DNA from: Nitrospirota bacterium
GTDB lineage: Bacteria > Nitrospirota > Nitrospiria > Nitrospirales > Nitrospiraceae
DNA length: 32,000 bases
NCBI GenBank assembly: GCA_963850405.1
Contig: CAWKLH010000025.1
Location: 223,554-255,553 of the forward strand
Direction of reading: 5' to 3'
Of this stretch, positions 4,826-29,616 are shown in pieces. Every line of letters starts with the position of its first letter. The stretch's first letter is position 1. The position numbers were made by a program, and so were the translations under genes. The notes below the pieces were generated by a model. That model saw nothing but the letters and a program-made list of their open reading frames with translations. It was not told the DNA's origin and ran no database searches.

Positions 4826-5429
4826 ATGGCGAACGGTACGATCCTGTCTCGAGTCGGTTGGTTTTCAATGATGATTGTCGTGGGCGGTTTCTTGGCCAGT
4901 TGCGACAGCACGGTACGGCAAATCGGCAAGTCGACGGAGTCGTCGCCTGTCGTCCAGACGGAGGGCCGAGAGAAGCATACTGACCACACTTATGGCTTTA
5001 CCGTCAAATATTCTCCAAAAGATTATGTGCTTCTCACGGAAGGTCCCATCCAGACCACCACGCAGCCGCCGGCGGTCCAGCGCGTACGCTTTCAACGGAA
5101 AGACATCGCGGCCGGCCAGGTTGTAGACCATGAATCTCCGGGATTGACCATCAGCGTGTTCACGCAATCGCCGGGACGCTCGCTGTACGATTGGCTCGAC
5201 TCATAGCGGACTGCTGCCTCCTGGCAGCGAGATTTCTTCGGTTCGACTGACAGGCGTGAAGGAAGGGTTGAGAGTTACCCTCAGAGAGCAACCTGCGCCT
5301 AACGAGTTCGTCTATCTCGCAACCGATCAGTATGTGTACGGTCTTGTCCCTTATGGCGCCAAGGGCGGGAAAATGCTGCGATCATTCCGCCTGCTTCCGG
5401 ATTCCACAAGGGCTCATATGCGCCATTGA
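4826..5429 (+). pseudogene. Hypothetical lipoprotein, apparently interrupted by a +1 frameshift near 5200
   Basis: ATG at 4826 with GAGGGG 8 nt upstream and a lipobox (FLASC). The frame stops at 5206. A stop-free +1 frame continues with protein-like sequence (HSGLLPPGSEISSVRLTGVKEGLRVTL...FVYLATDQYVYGLVPYG) to 5429. Removing 1 nt gives 201 codons. Confidence 0.5.
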
Positions 5430-22398: not shown

Positions 22399-23067
22399 CT
22401 AGTTTCCGAAGATGGACGGGAACAACCCTCTGTCTTTTTTTGCGGCCAGCGTGTCGCTGCCGATCCCGGATGGTTTTAAATAGAACTCATCAACCAACAC
22501 AAGCACACGCTTAATACCGGCACTCATGGAGCGTACAGACATGGTCGCCCCGCTGATGTTAATGATGTCTTTGTTGATCCGAACCGGATCGAGGACGGAC
22601 TTGCCCTCATACTGGGCGTTAAACCGTTTTTGCCGAACCTCGCTCCCACGCGCTTCGCGGAACACCAGAAGCTCGATATCTGATACAAAACCCTTGTTGT
22701 CGATGCCGACCATGTAGGTCATCGGCTTATGCTTGCCGATGGTGCTCTGAACGATCGCGTAACCGTCAATCTGGGACCCGGTTTCCCCAATATAGACTTC
22801 GAAAGACTCTTCGGGGAACTTCCAGCCGATACGCTCTTCAATGAGGGCCTTTTTCTCAGGGCTGAGCTTGATGAGCTCTTTACGAACTCGTTCGGACTTC
22901 GGAAGTATGACCTTAAGGCCGTCTTCTTCTCGCAGATAGACCTCGGCCATGTTCATTTCTTGCTCAGTCAAATAGCGTTTGAGATCGTTGTCCCAAACAC
23001 GCTCTGCGCCCATTGATACGATCGGCGTCATGAACAGGGCGATGAGCACCGAGAGAAGTCTCATCAT
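22399..23067 (-). CDS. Periplasmic FMN-binding domain protein (NosR/RnfG-type FMN_bind, ApbE substrate-like)
   Basis: Signal peptide; FMN_bind-like core (GKHKPMTYMVGIDNKGFVSDIELLVFREARG) and the flavinylation motif DIINISGATMSVRS. ATGA overlap with the upstream lipoprotein gene. Confidence 0.8.
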   Translation of the reverse strand: MMRLLSVLIALFMTPIVSMGAERVWDNDLKRYLTEQEMNMAEVYLREEDGLKVILPKSERVRKELIKLSPEKKALIEERIGWKFPEESFEVYIGETGSQIDGYAIVQSTIGKHKPMTYMVGIDNKGFVSDIELLVFREARGSEVRQKRFNAQYEGKSVLDPVRINKDIINISGATMSVRSMSAGIKRVLVLVDEFYLKPSGIGSDTLAAKKDRGLFPSIFGN

Positions 23068-23519
23068 CGTGATGCCTCACACCCCTTGTCTTTGAGTCGT
23101 GCGGTGAGCTTTCCCGTGATCTCGTCCATCACTTCATCAGACGGTTCAATTGGCCACCACCTGGTCGCCTGTTGGGTCGCTCCGCCTCTGGCATGCCAGC
23201 GTTGTCTGGTTTCGAGTACATTTACCGAGGACTGGTCATTGTTGCTCTTGACGACAACCGTTAAGCGGGCTCGTTCACGGTTGCCGAATCCCTCTCGTCC
23301 CAAGATTCCGTAAGGCCGGGTTTTCCCTTCCATTTCCACCCAGGCCGTCTCGATGGTGCCAGCACTTTTGTCTTCCGCTGTGACTGAGTAGCCTTTCATG
23401 GTGTCTAGCGTTGCTTCCCAGGCGGCATCATAGGGGCAGACAAATGCGTGGTCATGGCCACCACTCAACGATGCACAGGCTGTTAACGCTAAAAACGGAA
23501 GGAGAAGAATTACGCGCAT
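23064..23519 (-). CDS. Lipoprotein of unknown function
   Basis: Lipobox LTAC/AS, 151 aa, translationally coupled to the FMN-binding gene. Confidence 0.7.
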   Translation of the reverse strand: MRVILLLPFLALTACASLSGGHDHAFVCPYDAAWEATLDTMKGYSVTAEDKSAGTIETAWVEMEGKTRPYGILGREGFGNRERARLTVVVKSNNDQSSVNVLETRQRWHARGGATQQATRWWPIEPSDEVMDEITGKLTARLKDKGCEASR

Positions 23520-23579
23520 AGGTTGGTTCCTATCCTGTCATGGTGAGGGAGGCCGGCATTCGCCAGCCTCCCCTTGCTC

Positions 23580-25058
23580 CTAAAAATACGTGGCTGCTGA
23601 AATGACAAACGCACTGTCATGAATACGCTGGTCGTTGTTCGGATTGAGAGATTTCGGCATGTACTGATAGCTCATCTTGAGGACGGCATCTTCGACGGGG
23701 CGGTAGTTCAACCCGAACGAAATCTGTTCGAGCTCGCCCCCATTCTCTCCTTTGTTGCCTAAATTCAAATTCACTCGATCATAGCGAATGACCGCGGTGA
23801 AGGTTGAGCCTTCCCCGAACCGTTTGGGGGAGAGCTTTGTTAAGAAGGACGGCATGAAGTGATAGTTGCCTTGAATGTAAAACCCCTGCATTCTTTCAGG
23901 GGGCAAGCCGAGGGGATTCAGTGTGCCGATGCCGGTCAGTAATGAGCCTGGCGAAATCCCTTGGAAGGTATTGCCGGTGATTGCCCGTGAGTTTCCTCGC
24001 GCATGGGCCCAGGCTGCTTCACCGATAAGTTCAAACGGCCCTTTTTGAATCGTCCAATCAATCGCGAAGATGCTGAGTGGATTGTAACTCGTCGCTGATT
24101 GGTTGCCGAAGTAGCCTGATCCTGCCACTTCCACACCGAGTATGGGACTGAAGGCCAGACGGCCGGACACCGCTTTGCCGTTATTGATGTCCAGCCCATC
24201 TGCGGAGCCACATTTCCGCTGACGGGCTTCTTTTGTGCCTCCCGTTTCTGTGACGCGTGGTTCGCCATCGCCGTTATAGCCGCAGGGGCCGGTCGTAAAG
24301 TACACTTCGTAATCGAGTTTGCCGGTTCGGCCTGGGTAAAACGTGCCATACAAGCCGGCGCCTGTTTCGGACATGGTCGAGGGAATGATCAGTCGGCTGA
24401 CAATAGGTCGATCAGTCAGGTCGTTTAATGGAGAATCGTGCAGAAGGTTAAACTTCCCGAGGGGGATGAGGACAATTCCTCCTCGCAGGTTGACCTTTTC
24501 ATTAACAAGATAGTCAACATGAGCAAATTCCAGGCTGATCTCCACGTCGTTGGTTGCCCTGATGCCATGTTCGATCTCGATTTCTGAGGCAAACTTGAGA
24601 TGTTCAGTGATGTCAGCGTAAATAAAGGGGACGAATCGTTGCTGGTCGAATCCATTGGTGGTTCCACCATCCCGCCCTGATTCAAGCACAGAGTTTCGGT
24701 GTGCGCGATATTGAATGTCGAAATATCCACCGACGATCGCCTTGGGGAATGACACAAACGGCTTCGCATAGATCAGCCTGCCGGATCCGCTTGAACCGAA
24801 CGAGAGAGGGGCTTGCTGCTCTACCCGCCGCTCCTTACCGACTTCTGGAAGTGAGCCGATTCCAGGCTCTGCTGCAGGTGTGGCGGAACCTTCACGCCGC
24901 TCCGTGGTGCCCTCGCGGCGTTCGCGCTCTTGCAGACGTTTTTCTACTGCCTCATCCACCAATTTCTTAATGTCCTCTGGGGTCAAGTTTTCTGCTAGCG
25001 CCGGCATGACCGGCAAGCTCATGATCACGAGAGCCCCGAGGATTGACCGTAACTTCAT
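23580..25058 (-). CDS. Outer-membrane porin-like beta-barrel with N-terminal coiled-coil
   Basis: GGAGG RBS, signal peptide (PALA/EN) and a charged helical segment (EDIKKLVDEAVEKRLQERERRE). The rest shows an alternating beta-strand pattern ending in a C-terminal aromatic residue (...SAATYF). Confidence 0.75.
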   Translation of the reverse strand: MKLRSILGALVIMSLPVMPALAENLTPEDIKKLVDEAVEKRLQERERREGTTERREGSATPAAEPGIGSLPEVGKERRVEQQAPLSFGSSGSGRLIYAKPFVSFPKAIVGGYFDIQYRAHRNSVLESGRDGGTTNGFDQQRFVPFIYADITEHLKFASEIEIEHGIRATNDVEISLEFAHVDYLVNEKVNLRGGIVLIPLGKFNLLHDSPLNDLTDRPIVSRLIIPSTMSETGAGLYGTFYPGRTGKLDYEVYFTTGPCGYNGDGEPRVTETGGTKEARQRKCGSADGLDINNGKAVSGRLAFSPILGVEVAGSGYFGNQSATSYNPLSIFAIDWTIQKGPFELIGEAAWAHARGNSRAITGNTFQGISPGSLLTGIGTLNPLGLPPERMQGFYIQGNYHFMPSFLTKLSPKRFGEGSTFTAVIRYDRVNLNLGNKGENGGELEQISFGLNYRPVEDAVLKMSYQYMPKSLNPNNDQRIHDSAFVISAATYF

Positions 25059-25394
25059 TGATATCCTCCGTCATAGAATAAGTGTTATGGCCTGACTCGG
25101 GACTCGATGGTCTCTGGTCGCGTCAATCGAAATATGGGGTATATCAAACGGATAGTGGCGCCTCCTTTTTTAATCACGTGATGCTATGGTGAAACCGCTC
25201 CCCAGCCTTCGATCATGAAGAAAAAGGGATCACAACAATACGCTTACACCGTTTACATTTGAGTTCCAGCCCTTGTCCGCATACCTTGGCGATCAATTGT
25301 CCACACTCACAGCGCGTTTCATGAGTCGGATCGTATTCCAGCGATGGTGCCTTGATGCGTAGTCATGATATGCGATGATTGATAGATTGAAATT

Positions 25395-25413
25395 GAGAAC
25401 GATTATTAATATC
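25395..25413. promoter_or_regulatory. Candidate Fur box
   Basis: GAGAACGATTATTAATATC matches the 19-bp consensus GATAATGATAATCATTATC at 14/19 positions (hand count). It overlaps the -10 element of the promoter at 25406-25434. Confidence 0.5.
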
Positions 25414-25434
25414 CGATCAGTGTTCCGCTGTCAA
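25406..25434 (-). promoter_or_regulatory. Candidate sigma70 promoter of the porin/FMN-binding operon
   Basis: On the minus strand, perfect TTGACA (25434-25429), a 17-nt spacer, then TATTAA (25411-25406). This would give a leader of about 340 nt before the porin ATG. Confidence 0.55.
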
Positions 25435-25683
25435 GTCGGAAGTTCTTCCTGGTAAGGTGGATGTCTGTGTGCGTTTCCAGAGTCGCTTGTCTTACAATTT
25501 CCACATGAGGATATGCGCTGTTGCCAAGAACTTCTGTTAATAAATATCCAACCCTTGGTGGGCGCTCCATGGTTGAGATCCTTCCTCATCCGGTGCAGAG
25601 AGAAGAGCAGTTTACGAAGTGATGTGTATTCTGCGATGTTCCGGAATAGTTCATCGGCACTTGGGGGTGAGAATAATCTGGCG

Positions 25684-26713
25684 ATGAAGTCTCTCCTTCT
25701 AAACGCTAGGTCCATAGCGATAGCCGGTCTTGCACTGGCATCCTTCGCGAGTTGCGCCGAGGTGTCACCCTCCCCCCTGCCCGTCGTCGTAAAGCGAACT
25801 CAAATGCATATGGGGACCCTGGTTACGATCACGGCTGTGTCGCCCGACCAAGATGTGGGCAACCGGGCGATGCAGGCCGCATTCGATGAGATCAAGCGAC
25901 TCGAACAGTTACTGAGCACCTGGCGTTCTGACAGCGAACTGTCACGGGTGAATCAAGCAGGCCGGCCGTCAGCCTGTCCAGGTGAGTTCTGAGACGCTTG
26001 AGCTGGTCACTCGATCTCTGGAGCTAGGGCGCCTGACTCATGGGTGGGTTCAATATTGCACTCGGTCCTGCCATCGAAGCCTGGAGTGTAATCGAACGGC
26101 AGCGCATTCCTGATGAGAGGGAGTTGCAACGATTGAAGCCTCTCGTCGATTGGACACGCATTCAAGTCAATAAAGAAGCGCGGACTATTTATCTGCCGCA
26201 TACGGGAATGCGTATTGATGTTGGTGGGATTGGGAAGGGATACGCAGCCGATCGGGCGGTGGAGGAGATGAAACGAGTGGGAGTGAGGGCGGGCGTGGTT
26301 GCGCTATCAGGAGACATCAAAACTTTCGGTGTCCTGCCGGACCGAAAGGGGTTTCCGGTCGGTATCAGGCATCCACGTCGAGGAAGGAGGATTGATTGCC
26401 ATGATCGACCTGAACGATGAAGCCGATTTCAACAGCGGGTGATTACGAACGGTTTTTCGAACGAGATGGCGTCCGGTATCATCACATCTTGGACCCGCAA
26501 ACATTACAGCCGGCACGAGCTTGTCAGAGCGTCACGGTGATTGCCAAAGAAGGCACGATGGCTGACGGATTGGATACAGGGATTTTCGTGTTAGGACCCG
26601 AACAGGGGATGGCGTTGGTGGAGCGCTTGCCGGGGGTTGAGGCGATCATCATCGACCAGGAGGGCACGATCACTGTCTCATCCGGACTCCGTGGTCGGCT
26701 GCACGCGCCATGA
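25684..26713 (+). pseudogene. apbE: ApbE-family FAD:protein FMN transferase lipoprotein, broken by four +1 frameshifts
   Basis: ApbE-like sequence runs through frames 1>2>0>1>2. The segments read ...SELSRVNQAG | GRQPVQVSSETLELV...LTHG | GFNIALGPAIEAW...IDVGGIGKGYAAD...GIRHPR | EEGGLIAMIDLNDEA | ISTAGDYERFFERDGVRYHHILDP... Extra nucleotides sit at about 25963, 26045, 26379 and 26425. Removing them gives 342 codons. Lipobox FASC. Confidence 0.8.
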
Positions 26714-26727
26714 GGTGCCGAGGAGGA

Positions 26728-27604
26728 CTACCGCGCCATCTTGAGATCGTAGCTAATCGAAAACTTTACTGGCATTTGGCGCCGTTCCAGTGGGCGAGAG
26801 AGCTTGATCGGGGGGCCGCTTCTCACATCCTCCAAGGCAACTTGATCAAGCGCAGGATTGCCTGAGCTCTTCGCGATACGCACATCACTCAAGAGTCCGT
26901 CTTCATGCAGCATCGCAGTCAGCGTCACTTTCCCCTGAATACCCTCCGTTCGTAATGTTACCGGGTATCGTTTGTCGAGATCTTCGATCCACCGTGCCAT
27001 GAGCTCCGCCAGCCATCCGTAGTCGGCTTTGGTTGGCGTGAGTTGGTTGGAAGGTGCCGAGGAGACAATCACGGAAGACGAAGAGTCGAGTGGAGAATCC
27101 TTGGCCACCTGGGATTCAGGTGGAGCTGTCGAACTTTCTGTGCAGACATCACGAGGTCAGCCGATGGACCCGACAGGTCCTGCCGCGCAACTTGAGGTGA
27201 TGGGAGAGGCGCAGAAGGTACCGAATCAGGGGGAGCCTGCTCCTGATGGGATTCTGGACTGATTTCAGCGATAGGTACTGGCGCAGGTGGAGTTACCGGT
27301 ATCGTTCTTTGTTGAATCTGTTTCCCTGCTGGGAGACGCATCGTTCACTGACGGAGCGTGTGGCTGAAGTGTCGGACTTGGCGGCGCCATTGCTCCAGAC
27401 CTCAACGTGGCTCCCGGTAAGGATGAGAGCGGAGCAACCATTGCCACATCCCACTGGAACGGGTCAGCCTGCGGCGCCAATTGCATACGCTGGACAAAGA
27501 GAGATCGCTGCCACGGCTAGGCCTCCGTGTAGTAGGCAGGATACCAGCCAACTAGCCGCCATAGGGCCAGTCTGACCGCGTGAACGCGTCATGGATTTCC
27601 CCAT
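26728..27604 (-). pseudogene. tonB: TonB, apparently disrupted by about three frameshifts in the linker region
   Basis: ATG at 27604 overlaps the exbD stop (ATGA). The N-terminal TM has the SxxxH motif (SCLLH) and that frame stops at 27464. Pro-rich segments continue in two other frames (PVTPPAPVPIAEISPE...). An intact TonB C-terminal domain (YPVTLRTEGIQGKVTL...) lies in the 26728..27108 ORF. Confidence 0.65.
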
Positions 27605-27978
27605 CACAGGCGGATGACCTCCAGACTGACTTGCTGAAATCCTAAGCCGCGAATCTCGTCGACGAGGGCCACGAATTTCTCGAGCAGCGTGACTTTGTCG
27701 GCTCGCACGACCACAGCCGATTCACGCGGCTGCGAGCTGAGAACAGAGGGAAGGCCTCCATCGGGGACCGGAGAGTCATTGAAGAATAGACTTCCATCAG
27801 CCGTCAAGGAAATCACGATGGGAACATCCTTCCGATCGCTCACCTCCTTGGCCTTGGCCAGGTTGACGGGAATTTGTCCCGTGCTGATGAAGGTGGCGGT
27901 CGTCAAGACAATGACGAGCAAGACCAACATCACGTCCACGAGCGGGATCACGTTGATCTGATCAATGTTCCGTTCCAT
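27604..27978 (-). CDS. exbD: ExbD/TolR family biopolymer transport protein
   Basis: 124 aa with an N-terminal TM (INVIPLVDVMLVLLVIVL) and a typical ExbD periplasmic domain. Confidence 0.85.
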   Translation of the reverse strand: MERNIDQINVIPLVDVMLVLLVIVLTTATFISTGQIPVNLAKAKEVSDRKDVPIVISLTADGSLFFNDSPVPDGGLPSVLSSQPRESAVVVRADKVTLLEKFVALVDEIRGLGFQQVSLEVIRL

Positions 27979-28393
27979 GTTGTGTCCTATACTCGGTCAG
28001 GATCTCACTCACACGACGACGCAGCACGTTATTCATCACGACACAGGGTATAGCGACCAGAAGACCGATGGCGGTCGCTTTCAATGCCAAGCTCAAGCCG
28101 ATCATGATGGTGCTCACGGCCATCGTCCCCGACGTTCCCATCGTATGGAATGTCAACATTATACCAAGGACGGTTCCCAGGAGGCCGATATATGGGGCGT
28201 TAGCAGCCACCGTACCAATAATCACGAGGCGTTTAGTCAGAGTGATTTCCAGCAGTTGCGCGTTTGAAAACTGAGAGAGATTGATGCGTCGGTAAAAGAG
28301 CCAGCGCTCGATGGCGATAGCCACGGACCACACGCTCAGGGCCAGTAACAGGCCGATGACTCCGAAATCAATGATGTCTTTCAACGCGTCCAT
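27962..28393 (-). CDS. exbB: ExbB (MotA/TolQ/ExbB proton channel, short form)
   Basis: 143 aa with 3 TM and the motif APYIGLLGTVLGIM. AAGGAG RBS. Confidence 0.85.
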   Translation of the reverse strand: MDALKDIIDFGVIGLLLALSVWSVAIAIERWLFYRRINLSQFSNAQLLEITLTKRLVIIGTVAANAPYIGLLGTVLGIMLTFHTMGTSGTMAVSTIMIGLSLALKATAIGLLVAIPCVVMNNVLRRRVSEILTEYRTQHGTEH

Positions 28394-28518
28394 CGAGGCT
28401 CCTTACATGGGAGACGTGGGTTGAGTCCGGTGGGGTTGGAAGCCGGAGTATCGATCCATCCATGCCAGATCGCTGAGCAGCTGTCAATTTGCACATACAT
28501 GAGGCGGTCTCTATTCCT

Positions 28519-29616
28519 CTAGGAGTGAGGAGATGGTTCGGCAGGAAAGAGAACCGTGTGGGTGGCAGAGACACGGAGTTCGACGGCGGTACCTTCCTGG
28601 TAGACGCAGGTTGAGCTTTCACTGCTGTGGATGATCTGCCCGGATGGGAGCTGGATCGTGTAGAGATTTTCAGACCCTCTGAACTGGCGGGCCACAACCC
28701 GAGGTTCGGCTGATTTATTGGGCATGAGCTGGATGTCGTCCGGGCGGATCATGACAACGACCGTGCTTCCCTCAGGACTGTTGAGCGTATCGGGGAACTC
28801 TCCCAGTTCGGTATGCACCATGCCTTGTCGAATCTGTCCGGTGACAAAGTCGGCTTGGCCCACAAAATCGGCCACGAACCGCGTGGCGGGGAGATGATAA
28901 ATCAGCTCTGGGGAATCCATCTGCTCGAGCACTCCCTGATTCAGAACGGCGATACGGTCCGCCATGGCGAAGGCTTCGTCATGATCATGCGTCACTAGAA
29001 TGGTCGTGGTTTTCATCCGGCGTAACAAGGCGTGGACTTCCTGCCGCATACGGCCTGCCATATCGGGGTCAAGGTTGCTGAACGGCTCATCGAGGAGGAG
29101 CAAGACAGGATTCTGCACCAGCGCTCGGGAGAGCGCCACTCGCTGCTGCTGTCCTCCCGACAACTCATGCGGGTAGCGTCGGTCGAGCCCTTCGAGGCCG
29201 GTCAGCCGCAGCATTTCTTGAACCCGACATGTCCGTTCCGCCCGTGACAGATGATGAAGCCCGAAGGCGATGTTATCGGCGACGCGCAGGTGTGGAAAGA
29301 GGGCGTACTCCTGAAAGACCATGCCGACACGGCGGTCCTCCGTTGGAATCGTTCCCGAGGAAGAGGAAACCAATTGGCCCGATAAAAATATGTGTCCGGA
29401 CCGGACTGGTTCAAACCCGGCGATGGCTCGCAGGACGGTCGTCTTGCCACAGCCGGACGGTCCAAGCAAACAGAGGATTTCGCCTTCTCGCGCAGAAAAT
29501 GAAATATCGCGGATCGCCGGTCTGCTGGGATCATAGGCACAGGACACAGAACGGAGTTCCAAGATGGAAGAGGCCGGCTGTGGTGAGGGGGAGGTGACCT
29601 TCGCGCCGGTCGGCAT
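28519..29616 (-). CDS. ABC transporter ATP-binding protein, Fe(III)/polyamine importer type (FbpC/AfuC-like)
   Basis: Walker A GPSGCGKTT, signature LSGGQQQRVAL, Walker B LLLLDEP and a C-terminal TOBE-like domain. Confidence 0.85.
   Translation of the reverse strand: MPTGAKVTSPSPQPASSILELRSVSCAYDPSRPAIRDISFSAREGEILCLLGPSGCGKTTVLRAIAGFEPVRSGHIFLSGQLVSSSSGTIPTEDRRVGMVFQEYALFPHLRVADNIAFGLHHLSRAERTCRVQEMLRLTGLEGLDRRYPHELSGGQQQRVALSRALVQNPVLLLLDEPFSNLDPDMAGRMRQEVHALLRRMKTTTILVTHDHDEAFAMADRIAVLNQGVLEQMDSPELIYHLPATRFVADFVGQADFVTGQIRQGMVHTELGEFPDTLNSPEGSTVVVMIRPDDIQLMPNKSAEPRVVARQFRGSENLYTIQLPSGQIIHSSESSTCVYQEGTAVELRVSATHTVLFPAEPSPHS

What the first reader, a model, noticed from the sequence alone, without database searches (positions are those of the whole stretch)
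25950..27510. Dense local cluster of about seven frameshifts confined to the convergent apbE and tonB genes
apbE reads through four frames. Each switch is explained by one extra nucleotide (about 25963, 26045, 26379, 26425), none in a homopolymer run. Deleting the four nucleotides restores a 341-aa ApbE with no internal stops. tonB needs about three further shifts (near 27470-27510, 27300-27340 and 27090-27140).

The flanking exbD, exbB, ABC transporter, porin operon and the roughly 8 kb amo locus are all intact. Seven indels in 1.6 kb with otherwise well-preserved protein sequence could mean very recent inactivation of two iron-acquisition accessory genes, for example in an iron-replete enrichment or culture. 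It could also be a localised assembly or consensus problem. If real, the FMN_bind protein next door would be left without its cognate flavin transferase.
Basis: seen in the sequence. Interest (0 to 1): 0.6.

Follow-up and report, generated by a model that had tools for sequence, protein, structure and literature searches.

The report
Assembly indel errors breaking apbE and tonB
The frameshifts that break apbE and tonB in this comammox Nitrospira draft genome are really in the sequence, but they are almost certainly consensus errors of a patchily error-prone assembly, not gene decay.

Summary
apbE (25684-26713, +) is split by four extra single bases. The convergent tonB (26728-27607, -) is split by two extra bases and one missing base. 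Leaving out the four apbE bases gives a 341-aa ApbE with no stops.

The biological reading does not hold.
- Six independent relatives, two of them about 95% identical over the patch and about 99% just to its right, lack every one of these indels and carry intact genes.
- The patch (25358-27495) has 10 window-only indels (8 insertions) but only about 9-19 window-only substitutions. That is not how pseudogenes decay.
- Three of the indels lie in intergenic DNA.
- Four of six coding insertions duplicate the neighbouring alternative allele (CG + GA gives CGA), the signature of two haplotypes merged into one consensus (P = 0.0015).
- The same assembly has similar frame breaks elsewhere, including multi-frameshift clusters in its only metG and in a ValRS-like synthetase, both essential genes.

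A second, intact apbE and three other TonB_C reading frames exist in the genome.

My verdict is an assembly artefact, with probability about 0.88.

The parts
25684..26713 (+). apbE (FAD:protein FMN transferase), read in five frame segments; the conceptual read-through is 341 aa
   Evidence: Pfam ApbE on three pieces; orthologues in relatives are 341 aa and intact; read-through
25958..25963 (+). window-only extra base 1 in apbE (CAAG[C]AGG; exact placement ambiguous within this stretch)
   Evidence: Absent from L017, L019, L055 and G013. CAG is the superstring of alleles AG and CA
26040..26045 (+). window-only extra base 2 in apbE (CTC[A]TGGG)
   Evidence: Absent from four relatives. ATG is the superstring of alleles TG and AT
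26379..26381 (+). window-only extra base 3 in apbE (CGTCG[A]GG)
   Evidence: Absent from six relatives. CGA is the superstring of alleles CG and GA
26424..26426 (+). window-only extra base 4 in apbE (GCCG[A]TTT)
   Evidence: Absent from six relatives. CGA is the superstring of alleles CG and GA
26728..27607 (-). tonB, read in four frame segments; the conceptual read-through is 292 aa
   Evidence: TonB_C on the 26728-27108 piece; intact 284-291 aa orthologues in relatives; read-through
27138..27139 (.). window-only missing base in tonB, at the join between a stretch like the L017/L019 allele type and a stretch like the G013 type
   Evidence: All six relatives have a base here
27329..27329 (.). 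window-only extra C in tonB
27495..27496 (.). window-only extra base in tonB
25358..25660 (.). three window-only indels in the intergenic/promoter DNA upstream of apbE: 25358 +C, 25414 -T, 25660 +C
   Evidence: Only a doubtful 83-aa ORF with no Pfam hit is called here in relatives
27604..28393 (-). exbD and exbB, both intact
   Evidence: Pfam ExbD and MotA_ExbB; the ExbD protein is identical to that of L019
28432..28432 (.). window-only extra G (GGG to GGGG) in intergenic DNA upstream of exbB
29579..29579 (.). window-only extra T about 13 codons into the ABC ATPase ORF. It shifts the true N-terminus: the ORF is 365 aa here and 375 aa in L019

Best explanation
The frameshifts are errors in the deposited consensus, not mutations in the organism. 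The genome is a 27-contig Nitrospira draft in which single-base indels, mostly insertions outside homopolymers, occur in patches. The apbE-tonB patch lies where co-occurring Nitrospira haplotypes differ most. I infer that reads or contigs from at least two haplotypes were collapsed into one consensus. Where two alleles differ by adjacent substitutions, a gapped alignment writes the difference as an insertion plus a deletion, and the consensus kept the insertion but not the deletion. That leaves a one-base superstring of both alleles and a +1 shift. Shown here: the indels are unique to the window, the ratio of indels to substitutions is abnormal, the superstring signature is present, and essential genes are broken elsewhere. 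Inferred: the exact assembly step and the sequencing platform. The organism most likely has an intact 341-aa ApbE and an intact TonB of about 290 aa at this locus.
For: 1. Every indel is window-only. Six independent sequences lack all of them and encode intact genes. These are L017 (CXWL01043848.1), L019 (an ERZ25039478 contig), L055 (CXWL01033190.1), G013 (Nitrospira sp. Ga0074138, LNDU01000011.1), L054 (Hainich groundwater) and L057 (JACRQB MAG).
2. On the window's own branch the patch has 10 indels but only 9-19 substitutions. The substitution rate equals that of the clean right flank, about 0.4%. If indels make up 10% of mutations, P(10 or more indels) is 4e-6 to 3e-4.
3. Eight of the ten indels are insertions, against the deletion bias of bacterial mutation (own knowledge: Mira, Ochman and Moran 2001).
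4. Three indels are intergenic.
5. Four of six coding insertions equal the adjacent alternative allele. The null expectation is 10.5%, P = 0.0015.
6. The exact broken protein fragments occur on no contig other than the genome's own, among about 15 billion proteins.
7. The problem is genome-wide. Against 117 kb of G013, about 12 of 98 ORFs of at least 200 aa are frame-broken in G000. The only metG is split over at least four frames. A ValRS-like class I synthetase is split over three frames. An RTX gene has eight events in 1.35 kb.
Against: The platform and assembler are unknown. rpoB (1330 aa) is intact, so the errors are patchy and the cause of the patchiness is inferred, not shown. Three intergenic indels and two of the six coding insertions are not explained by the known alternative alleles. 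The mosaic pattern of the window relative to the L017/L019 and G013 allele types also appears in another natural contig (L055), so mosaicism alone does not prove a chimeric consensus.
Confidence: 0.88

Rival explanations
1. These are real, very recent pseudogenes: apbE and tonB of the Fur-controlled flavoprotein/TonB locus were inactivated in this population, for example under iron-replete enrichment. Paralogues (the second apbE and other tonB copies) would cover the function.
For: The frame breaks are in the sequence. Paralogues exist that could make the genes dispensable. The locus lies next to a hypervariable, recombining region. The patch has about ten times the indel density of its flank.
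Against: Ten indels with no excess of substitutions. Insertion bias. Indels in intergenic DNA as well. The superstring-of-alleles signature. Identical-looking clusters in essential metG and a ValRS-like gene in the same assembly. No other assembly carries the fragments.
Confidence: 0.08
2. There is real strain-level heterogeneity: a minority or co-dominant sub-population carries some of the indels, and the consensus mixes true variants from several strains.
For: Several haplotypes of this 2.4-kb region coexist in one metagenome: two CXWL contigs, L017 and L055. The window's sequence behaves like a node or mosaic of the L017/L019 and G013 allele types, with almost no branch of its own.
Against: None of six sampled haplotypes has any of the indels. 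A mixture of intact haplotypes explains the data without any truly broken allele.
Confidence: 0.03
3. Programmed ribosomal frameshifting or another form of recoding restores the proteins.
For: All four apbE shifts are in the same direction (+1 extra base).
Against: No slippery or shifty motif at any site (contexts). Not conserved in any relative. Four recoding events in one gene are unprecedented. The same breaks occur in intergenic DNA.
Confidence: 0.01

Closest known systems
Indel-type consensus errors in draft or metagenome-assembled genomes (unpolished long-read patches; collapsed strain haplotypes)
   Same: Single-base indels unique to one assembly and clustered in patches. They break otherwise well-conserved genes, essential ones included. 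There is no accompanying rise in substitutions. They concentrate where population haplotypes diverge.
   Different: The platform and pipeline are unknown here. Most of the indels are insertions outside homopolymers, which is not the classic nanopore or 454/Ion Torrent homopolymer-deletion profile. Several look like merged alleles rather than random read errors.
ApbE/Ftp FAD:protein FMN transferase (Pfam PF02424) with a neighbouring FMN_bind target
   Same: The read-through is 341 aa, the same length as the intact orthologues in relatives; over the patch the DNA is about 95% identical to L017/L019. The Pfam profile is covered at positions 1-47, 70-180 and 192-266, with the short gaps on the bridging pieces. 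The N-terminus looks like a lipoprotein signal. The gene lies divergent from an operon that encodes an FMN_bind protein.
   Different: As deposited, the gene is in five frame pieces. Function was not tested.
TonB of an ExbB-ExbD-TonB energy-transducing system
   Same: The gene order is exbB-exbD-tonB. It has a TonB_C domain, a Pro-rich linker and an N-terminal anchor segment.
   Different: As deposited, the gene is in four frame pieces.
Bacterial pseudogene decay, as in reductive genomes
   Same: Several frame disruptions in neighbouring genes.
   Different: True decay shows many more substitutions than indels and a bias toward deletions. It spares essential genes such as metG. None of these applies here.

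Membership tests
Assembly or consensus indel artefact | The indels are absent from all close relatives and independent assemblies | tested here: met
   Six independent sequences lack all ten indels. The exact fragments are found only on the genome's own contig.
Assembly or consensus indel artefact | The ratio of indels to substitutions is far above the mutational expectation, with no rise in substitutions | tested here: met
   10 indels against 9-19 substitutions on the window's branch. The substitution rate equals that of the flank. P is 4e-6 to 3e-4.
Assembly or consensus indel artefact | The same kind of break occurs in essential single-copy genes of the same assembly | tested here: met
   The sole metG is split over at least four frames, and a ValRS-like gene over three.
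Assembly or consensus indel artefact | The raw reads do not support the indels | not testable with these tools
Genuine pseudogene | Relaxed constraint: excess substitutions, including nonsense and non-synonymous changes, on the lineage | tested here: not met
   The window-branch substitution count in the patch is about the same as in the intact flank. The read-throughs have no internal stops.
Genuine pseudogene | The disruption is reproducible in independent data from the same population | tested here: inconclusive
   No other contig carries the fragments, but it is unknown whether the same population was sampled elsewhere.
Programmed frameshift | A shift site with a slippery motif, conserved among orthologues | tested here: not met
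   All orthologues are in frame at each site. The contexts show no slippery motif.
ApbE family (PF02424) | Match to the Pfam ApbE profile above the gathering score | tested here: met
   Three fragments score 37-99 bits against a cut-off of 25.6 and cover profile positions 1-47, 70-180 and 192-266.
TonB (TonB_C, PF03544) | C-terminal TonB_C domain above the cut-off, in an exbB-exbD-tonB arrangement | tested here: met
   46.4 bits against a cut-off of 24.6. ExbD and ExbB lie next door.

The most novel reading that the evidence does not exclude
The indels are real, and this comammox Nitrospira population has just lost, by indels alone, the ApbE flavin transferase and the TonB of a Fur-controlled extracytoplasmic flavoprotein/iron-uptake module. 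That would imply an unusual local, insertion-biased mutational process, or relaxed selection in an iron-replete reactor.
Probability: 0.07. Interest if true: 0.35.

Novelty: not a real feature. Interest (0 to 1): 0.06.

Why it matters
The main value is as a warning. This species-representative comammox Nitrospira genome contains patches of single-base indel errors that fragment genes. Examples are apbE, tonB, metG, a ValRS-like synthetase, pilB, pilM/N and an RTX protein. Any claim of pseudogenes, gene loss, split genes or unusual short ORFs in this genome, including other findings from this window, needs read-level confirmation first. In particular, the genome gives no evidence that iron-uptake or flavinylation capacity has been lost.

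Tried and rejected
2. I tried an ab initio genome-wide frameshift census with a dicodon scan and a 3-periodic Markov/Viterbi frame tracker. It recovered the frame switches at 5201/5202 and 5922/5923 and some of those in apbE. The gene-boundary filter was too unspecific, with 918 candidates and many known events missed, so I did not use its numbers.
3. I tested whether the window is a simple chimera of the two haplotypes found in the CXWL metagenome (L017 and L055). It is not: 45 sites differ from both. Mosaicism is partly natural recombination among lineages, so I rely on the indel-specific superstring test instead.
4. I tried to identify the genome's publication and sequencing platform. The van Kessel 2015 paper is not held. 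Camejo 2017 and a 2026 ISME Communications paper gave nothing that matches a 27-contig, 4.105-Mb genome.
5. I considered programmed frameshifting and rejected it (no motif, no conservation).

Full report
**What is there.** The window is G000:C25:223554-255553 of a 4.105-Mb, 27-contig Nitrospira genome with an amo locus. On the plus strand, apbE runs from the ATG at 25684 to the stop at 26713, but it is read in five frame segments. Pfam ApbE profile positions 1-47, 70-180 and 192-266 fall on three separate ORFs, with two short bridging pieces. The convergent tonB (27607 down to 26728, minus strand) is in four pieces, and TonB_C lies on the last of them. exbD and exbB follow and are intact.

**Exact lesions.** I aligned the region with intact relatives:
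- G013, which is Nitrospira sp. Ga0074138 (LNDU01000011.1): ApbE 341 aa, TonB 284 aa.
- L017, metagenome contig CXWL01043848.1, 2396 bp, spanning exactly window 25243-27647: ApbE 341 aa, TonB 286 aa.
- L019, an 80.9-kb contig of ERZ25039478: ApbE 341 aa, TonB 291 aa.
- L055 (CXWL01033190.1), L054 (Hainich groundwater) and L057 (a JACRQB groundwater MAG).

In the multiple alignments the window alone has extra bases at 25358, 25660, about 25958, about 26040, 26381, 26426, 27329 and 27495. It alone lacks a base at 25414 and at 27138. That is 8 insertions and 2 deletions in 2.1 kb. Leaving out the four apbE bases gives a 341-aa product with no internal stop. The tonB read-through is 292 aa.

Three of the ten indels (25358, 25414, 25660) lie upstream of apbE in intergenic/promoter DNA. 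Only a doubtful 83-aa ORF with no Pfam hit is called there in relatives. Two further window-only insertions lie on the right flank. One is at 28432, in intergenic DNA. The other is at 29579, inside the N-terminus of the ABC ATPase, whose ORF is 365 aa here and 375 aa in L019. So the lesions are not confined to the two genes.

**Why this is not gene decay.** In three-way comparisons the window's own branch carries about 9-19 substitutions across the patch. The rate is about 0.4%, the same as on the clean right flank, yet the patch has 10 indels against 2 in 4.4 kb of flank. If indels are 10% of mutations, the probability of 10 or more indels among 19-29 changes is 4e-6 to 3e-4. Eight of the ten are insertions, whereas bacterial mutation is biased toward deletion (own knowledge). 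The read-throughs have no nonsense codons. The exact broken fragments are found on no contig other than the genome's own.

**A mechanistic signature.** At 26381 and 26426 one allele type (L017/L019) reads CG, the other type (G013) reads GA, and the window reads CGA. At 26040 the alleles are TG and AT and the window reads ATG. At 25958 the alleles are AG and CA and the window reads CAG. In each case the window holds the shortest superstring of two co-existing alleles. Formally, 4 of 6 coding insertions equal the alternative allele of the neighbouring column, against a null expectation of 10.5% (P = 0.0015). At 27138 the missing base sits exactly where a stretch like L017/L019 joins a stretch like G013. 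This is what a consensus built from a gapped pile-up of two haplotypes would produce.

The patch is also where the lineages differ most: 5-16% between the two allele types, against 3% or less on the right flank. One metagenome (CXWL) holds two short alternative contigs of just this region. The window is not a simple chimera of those two contigs, and some of the mosaicism is natural recombination. I therefore treat the haplotype-merge step as inferred.

**The rest of the genome.** I compared 237 kb of G013 (117 kb alignable, 88-93% identity) with G000. About 12 of 98 G013 ORFs of at least 200 aa with a close orthologue are frame-broken in G000. Pfam confirmed that these are real genes:
- pilB (C26:420366).
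- A pilM/N fusion (C26:426152 and 426343).
- An epimerase (C4:168455).
- A SpoU methylase.
- An RNase H-like protein.
- A PP2C phosphatase.
- An RTX protein with eight events in 1.35 kb (C25:454.1-455.5 kb).

The isolated events are again mostly single inserted bases outside homopolymers.

Most telling are the essential genes. The genome's only methionyl-tRNA synthetase gene has its catalytic domain on a 393-aa frame, its tRNA_bind domain on another frame, and the middle spread over further frames. A ValRS-like class I synthetase at C26:41.9-43.9 kb has tRNA-synt_1 profile positions 3-184, 195-250 and 294-413 on three different frames. An organism cannot live with these genes broken, so such clusters in this assembly are artefacts. 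rpoB is intact at 1330 aa, so the errors are patchy rather than uniform.

A second, intact apbE lies at C13:21065-21913. Three other TonB_C open frames of about 303-306 aa exist. The FMN_bind protein next door is confirmed. Earlier notes on this window reported single-base frame breaks near 5200 and 5945. My frame tracker also switches frame at 5201/5202 and 5922/5923, which fits a window-wide error load.

**Limits.** The sequencing platform is unknown. The genome-wide rate comes from a 117-kb sample against one relative. My ab initio census was too noisy to use.

**Verdict.** The best explanation is a local patch of consensus error in a patchily error-prone assembly, probably caused by collapsed haplotypes (probability about 0.88). 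Real recent pseudogenes remain possible at about 0.08. This is not a biological novelty. It is a warning about quality for everything inferred from broken or split genes in this genome.

Noticed in passing
G000:C4:295432-297523 (locus L040:1015-3106): The genome's only methionyl-tRNA synthetase gene is split. The catalytic domain is on a 393-aa frame, tRNA_bind is on another frame, and the middle is spread over further frames. The first break is an extra A in GCT[A]CGC. Because the gene is essential, this must be assembly error.
   Followed up: yes
G000:C26:41.9-43.9 kb (locus L044:162-2220, minus strand): A ValRS-like class I aminoacyl-tRNA synthetase has tRNA-synt_1 profile positions 3-184, 195-250 and 294-413 on three different reading frames.
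   Followed up: partly
G000:C25:454103-455456: This is another dense cluster: eight net frame-changing indels in 1.35 kb of a large RTX/He_PIG repeat protein that is one open frame of more than 1360 aa in G013.
   Followed up: partly
G000:C26:420366; C26:426152 and 426343; C4:168455; C25:456733 and 457132; C17:247826, 248915, 249523: Isolated single- or double-base indels break pilB, a pilM/N fusion, an NAD-dependent epimerase, a SpoU methylase, an RNase H-like gene, a PP2C phosphatase and a SnoaL-like gene, compared with intact G013 orthologues.
   Followed up: partly
window 29579 (ABC ATPase ORF 28519-29616, minus strand): A window-only extra T about 13 codons into the ORF means that the apparently intact 365-aa ATPase has a shifted N-terminus. 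The L019 orthologue is 375 aa.
   Followed up: partly
window 25450-25532 versus L006:3502-4134: G013 carries an extra 210-aa putative lipoprotein gene between the shared promoter region and apbE. It is absent from the window, L017 and L019.
   Followed up: no
window 22400-25200: The porin/lipoprotein part of the Fur-regulated operon is hypervariable. The window differs by 10-25% from both L019 and G013 there, although all three are 97-99% identical from 27.6 to 31.3 kb. This suggests recombination or diversifying selection on surface components among comammox Nitrospira.
   Followed up: no
window 25243-25335, minus strand: Substitutions here are spaced at 3-nt intervals and fit a small Cys-rich (C-x-C ... 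C-x-x-C) zinc-ribbon-like ORF. It starts near 25330 in relatives. In the window no in-frame ATG was seen at the corresponding place. The ORF is not called by gene finders.
   Followed up: no
L017 (CXWL01043848.1) and L055 (CXWL01033190.1): One public metagenome holds two short contigs (2.4 and 3.0 kb) with different haplotypes of exactly this apbE-tonB region. That is the pattern expected from an assembly-graph bubble at a strain-variable locus.
   Followed up: partly
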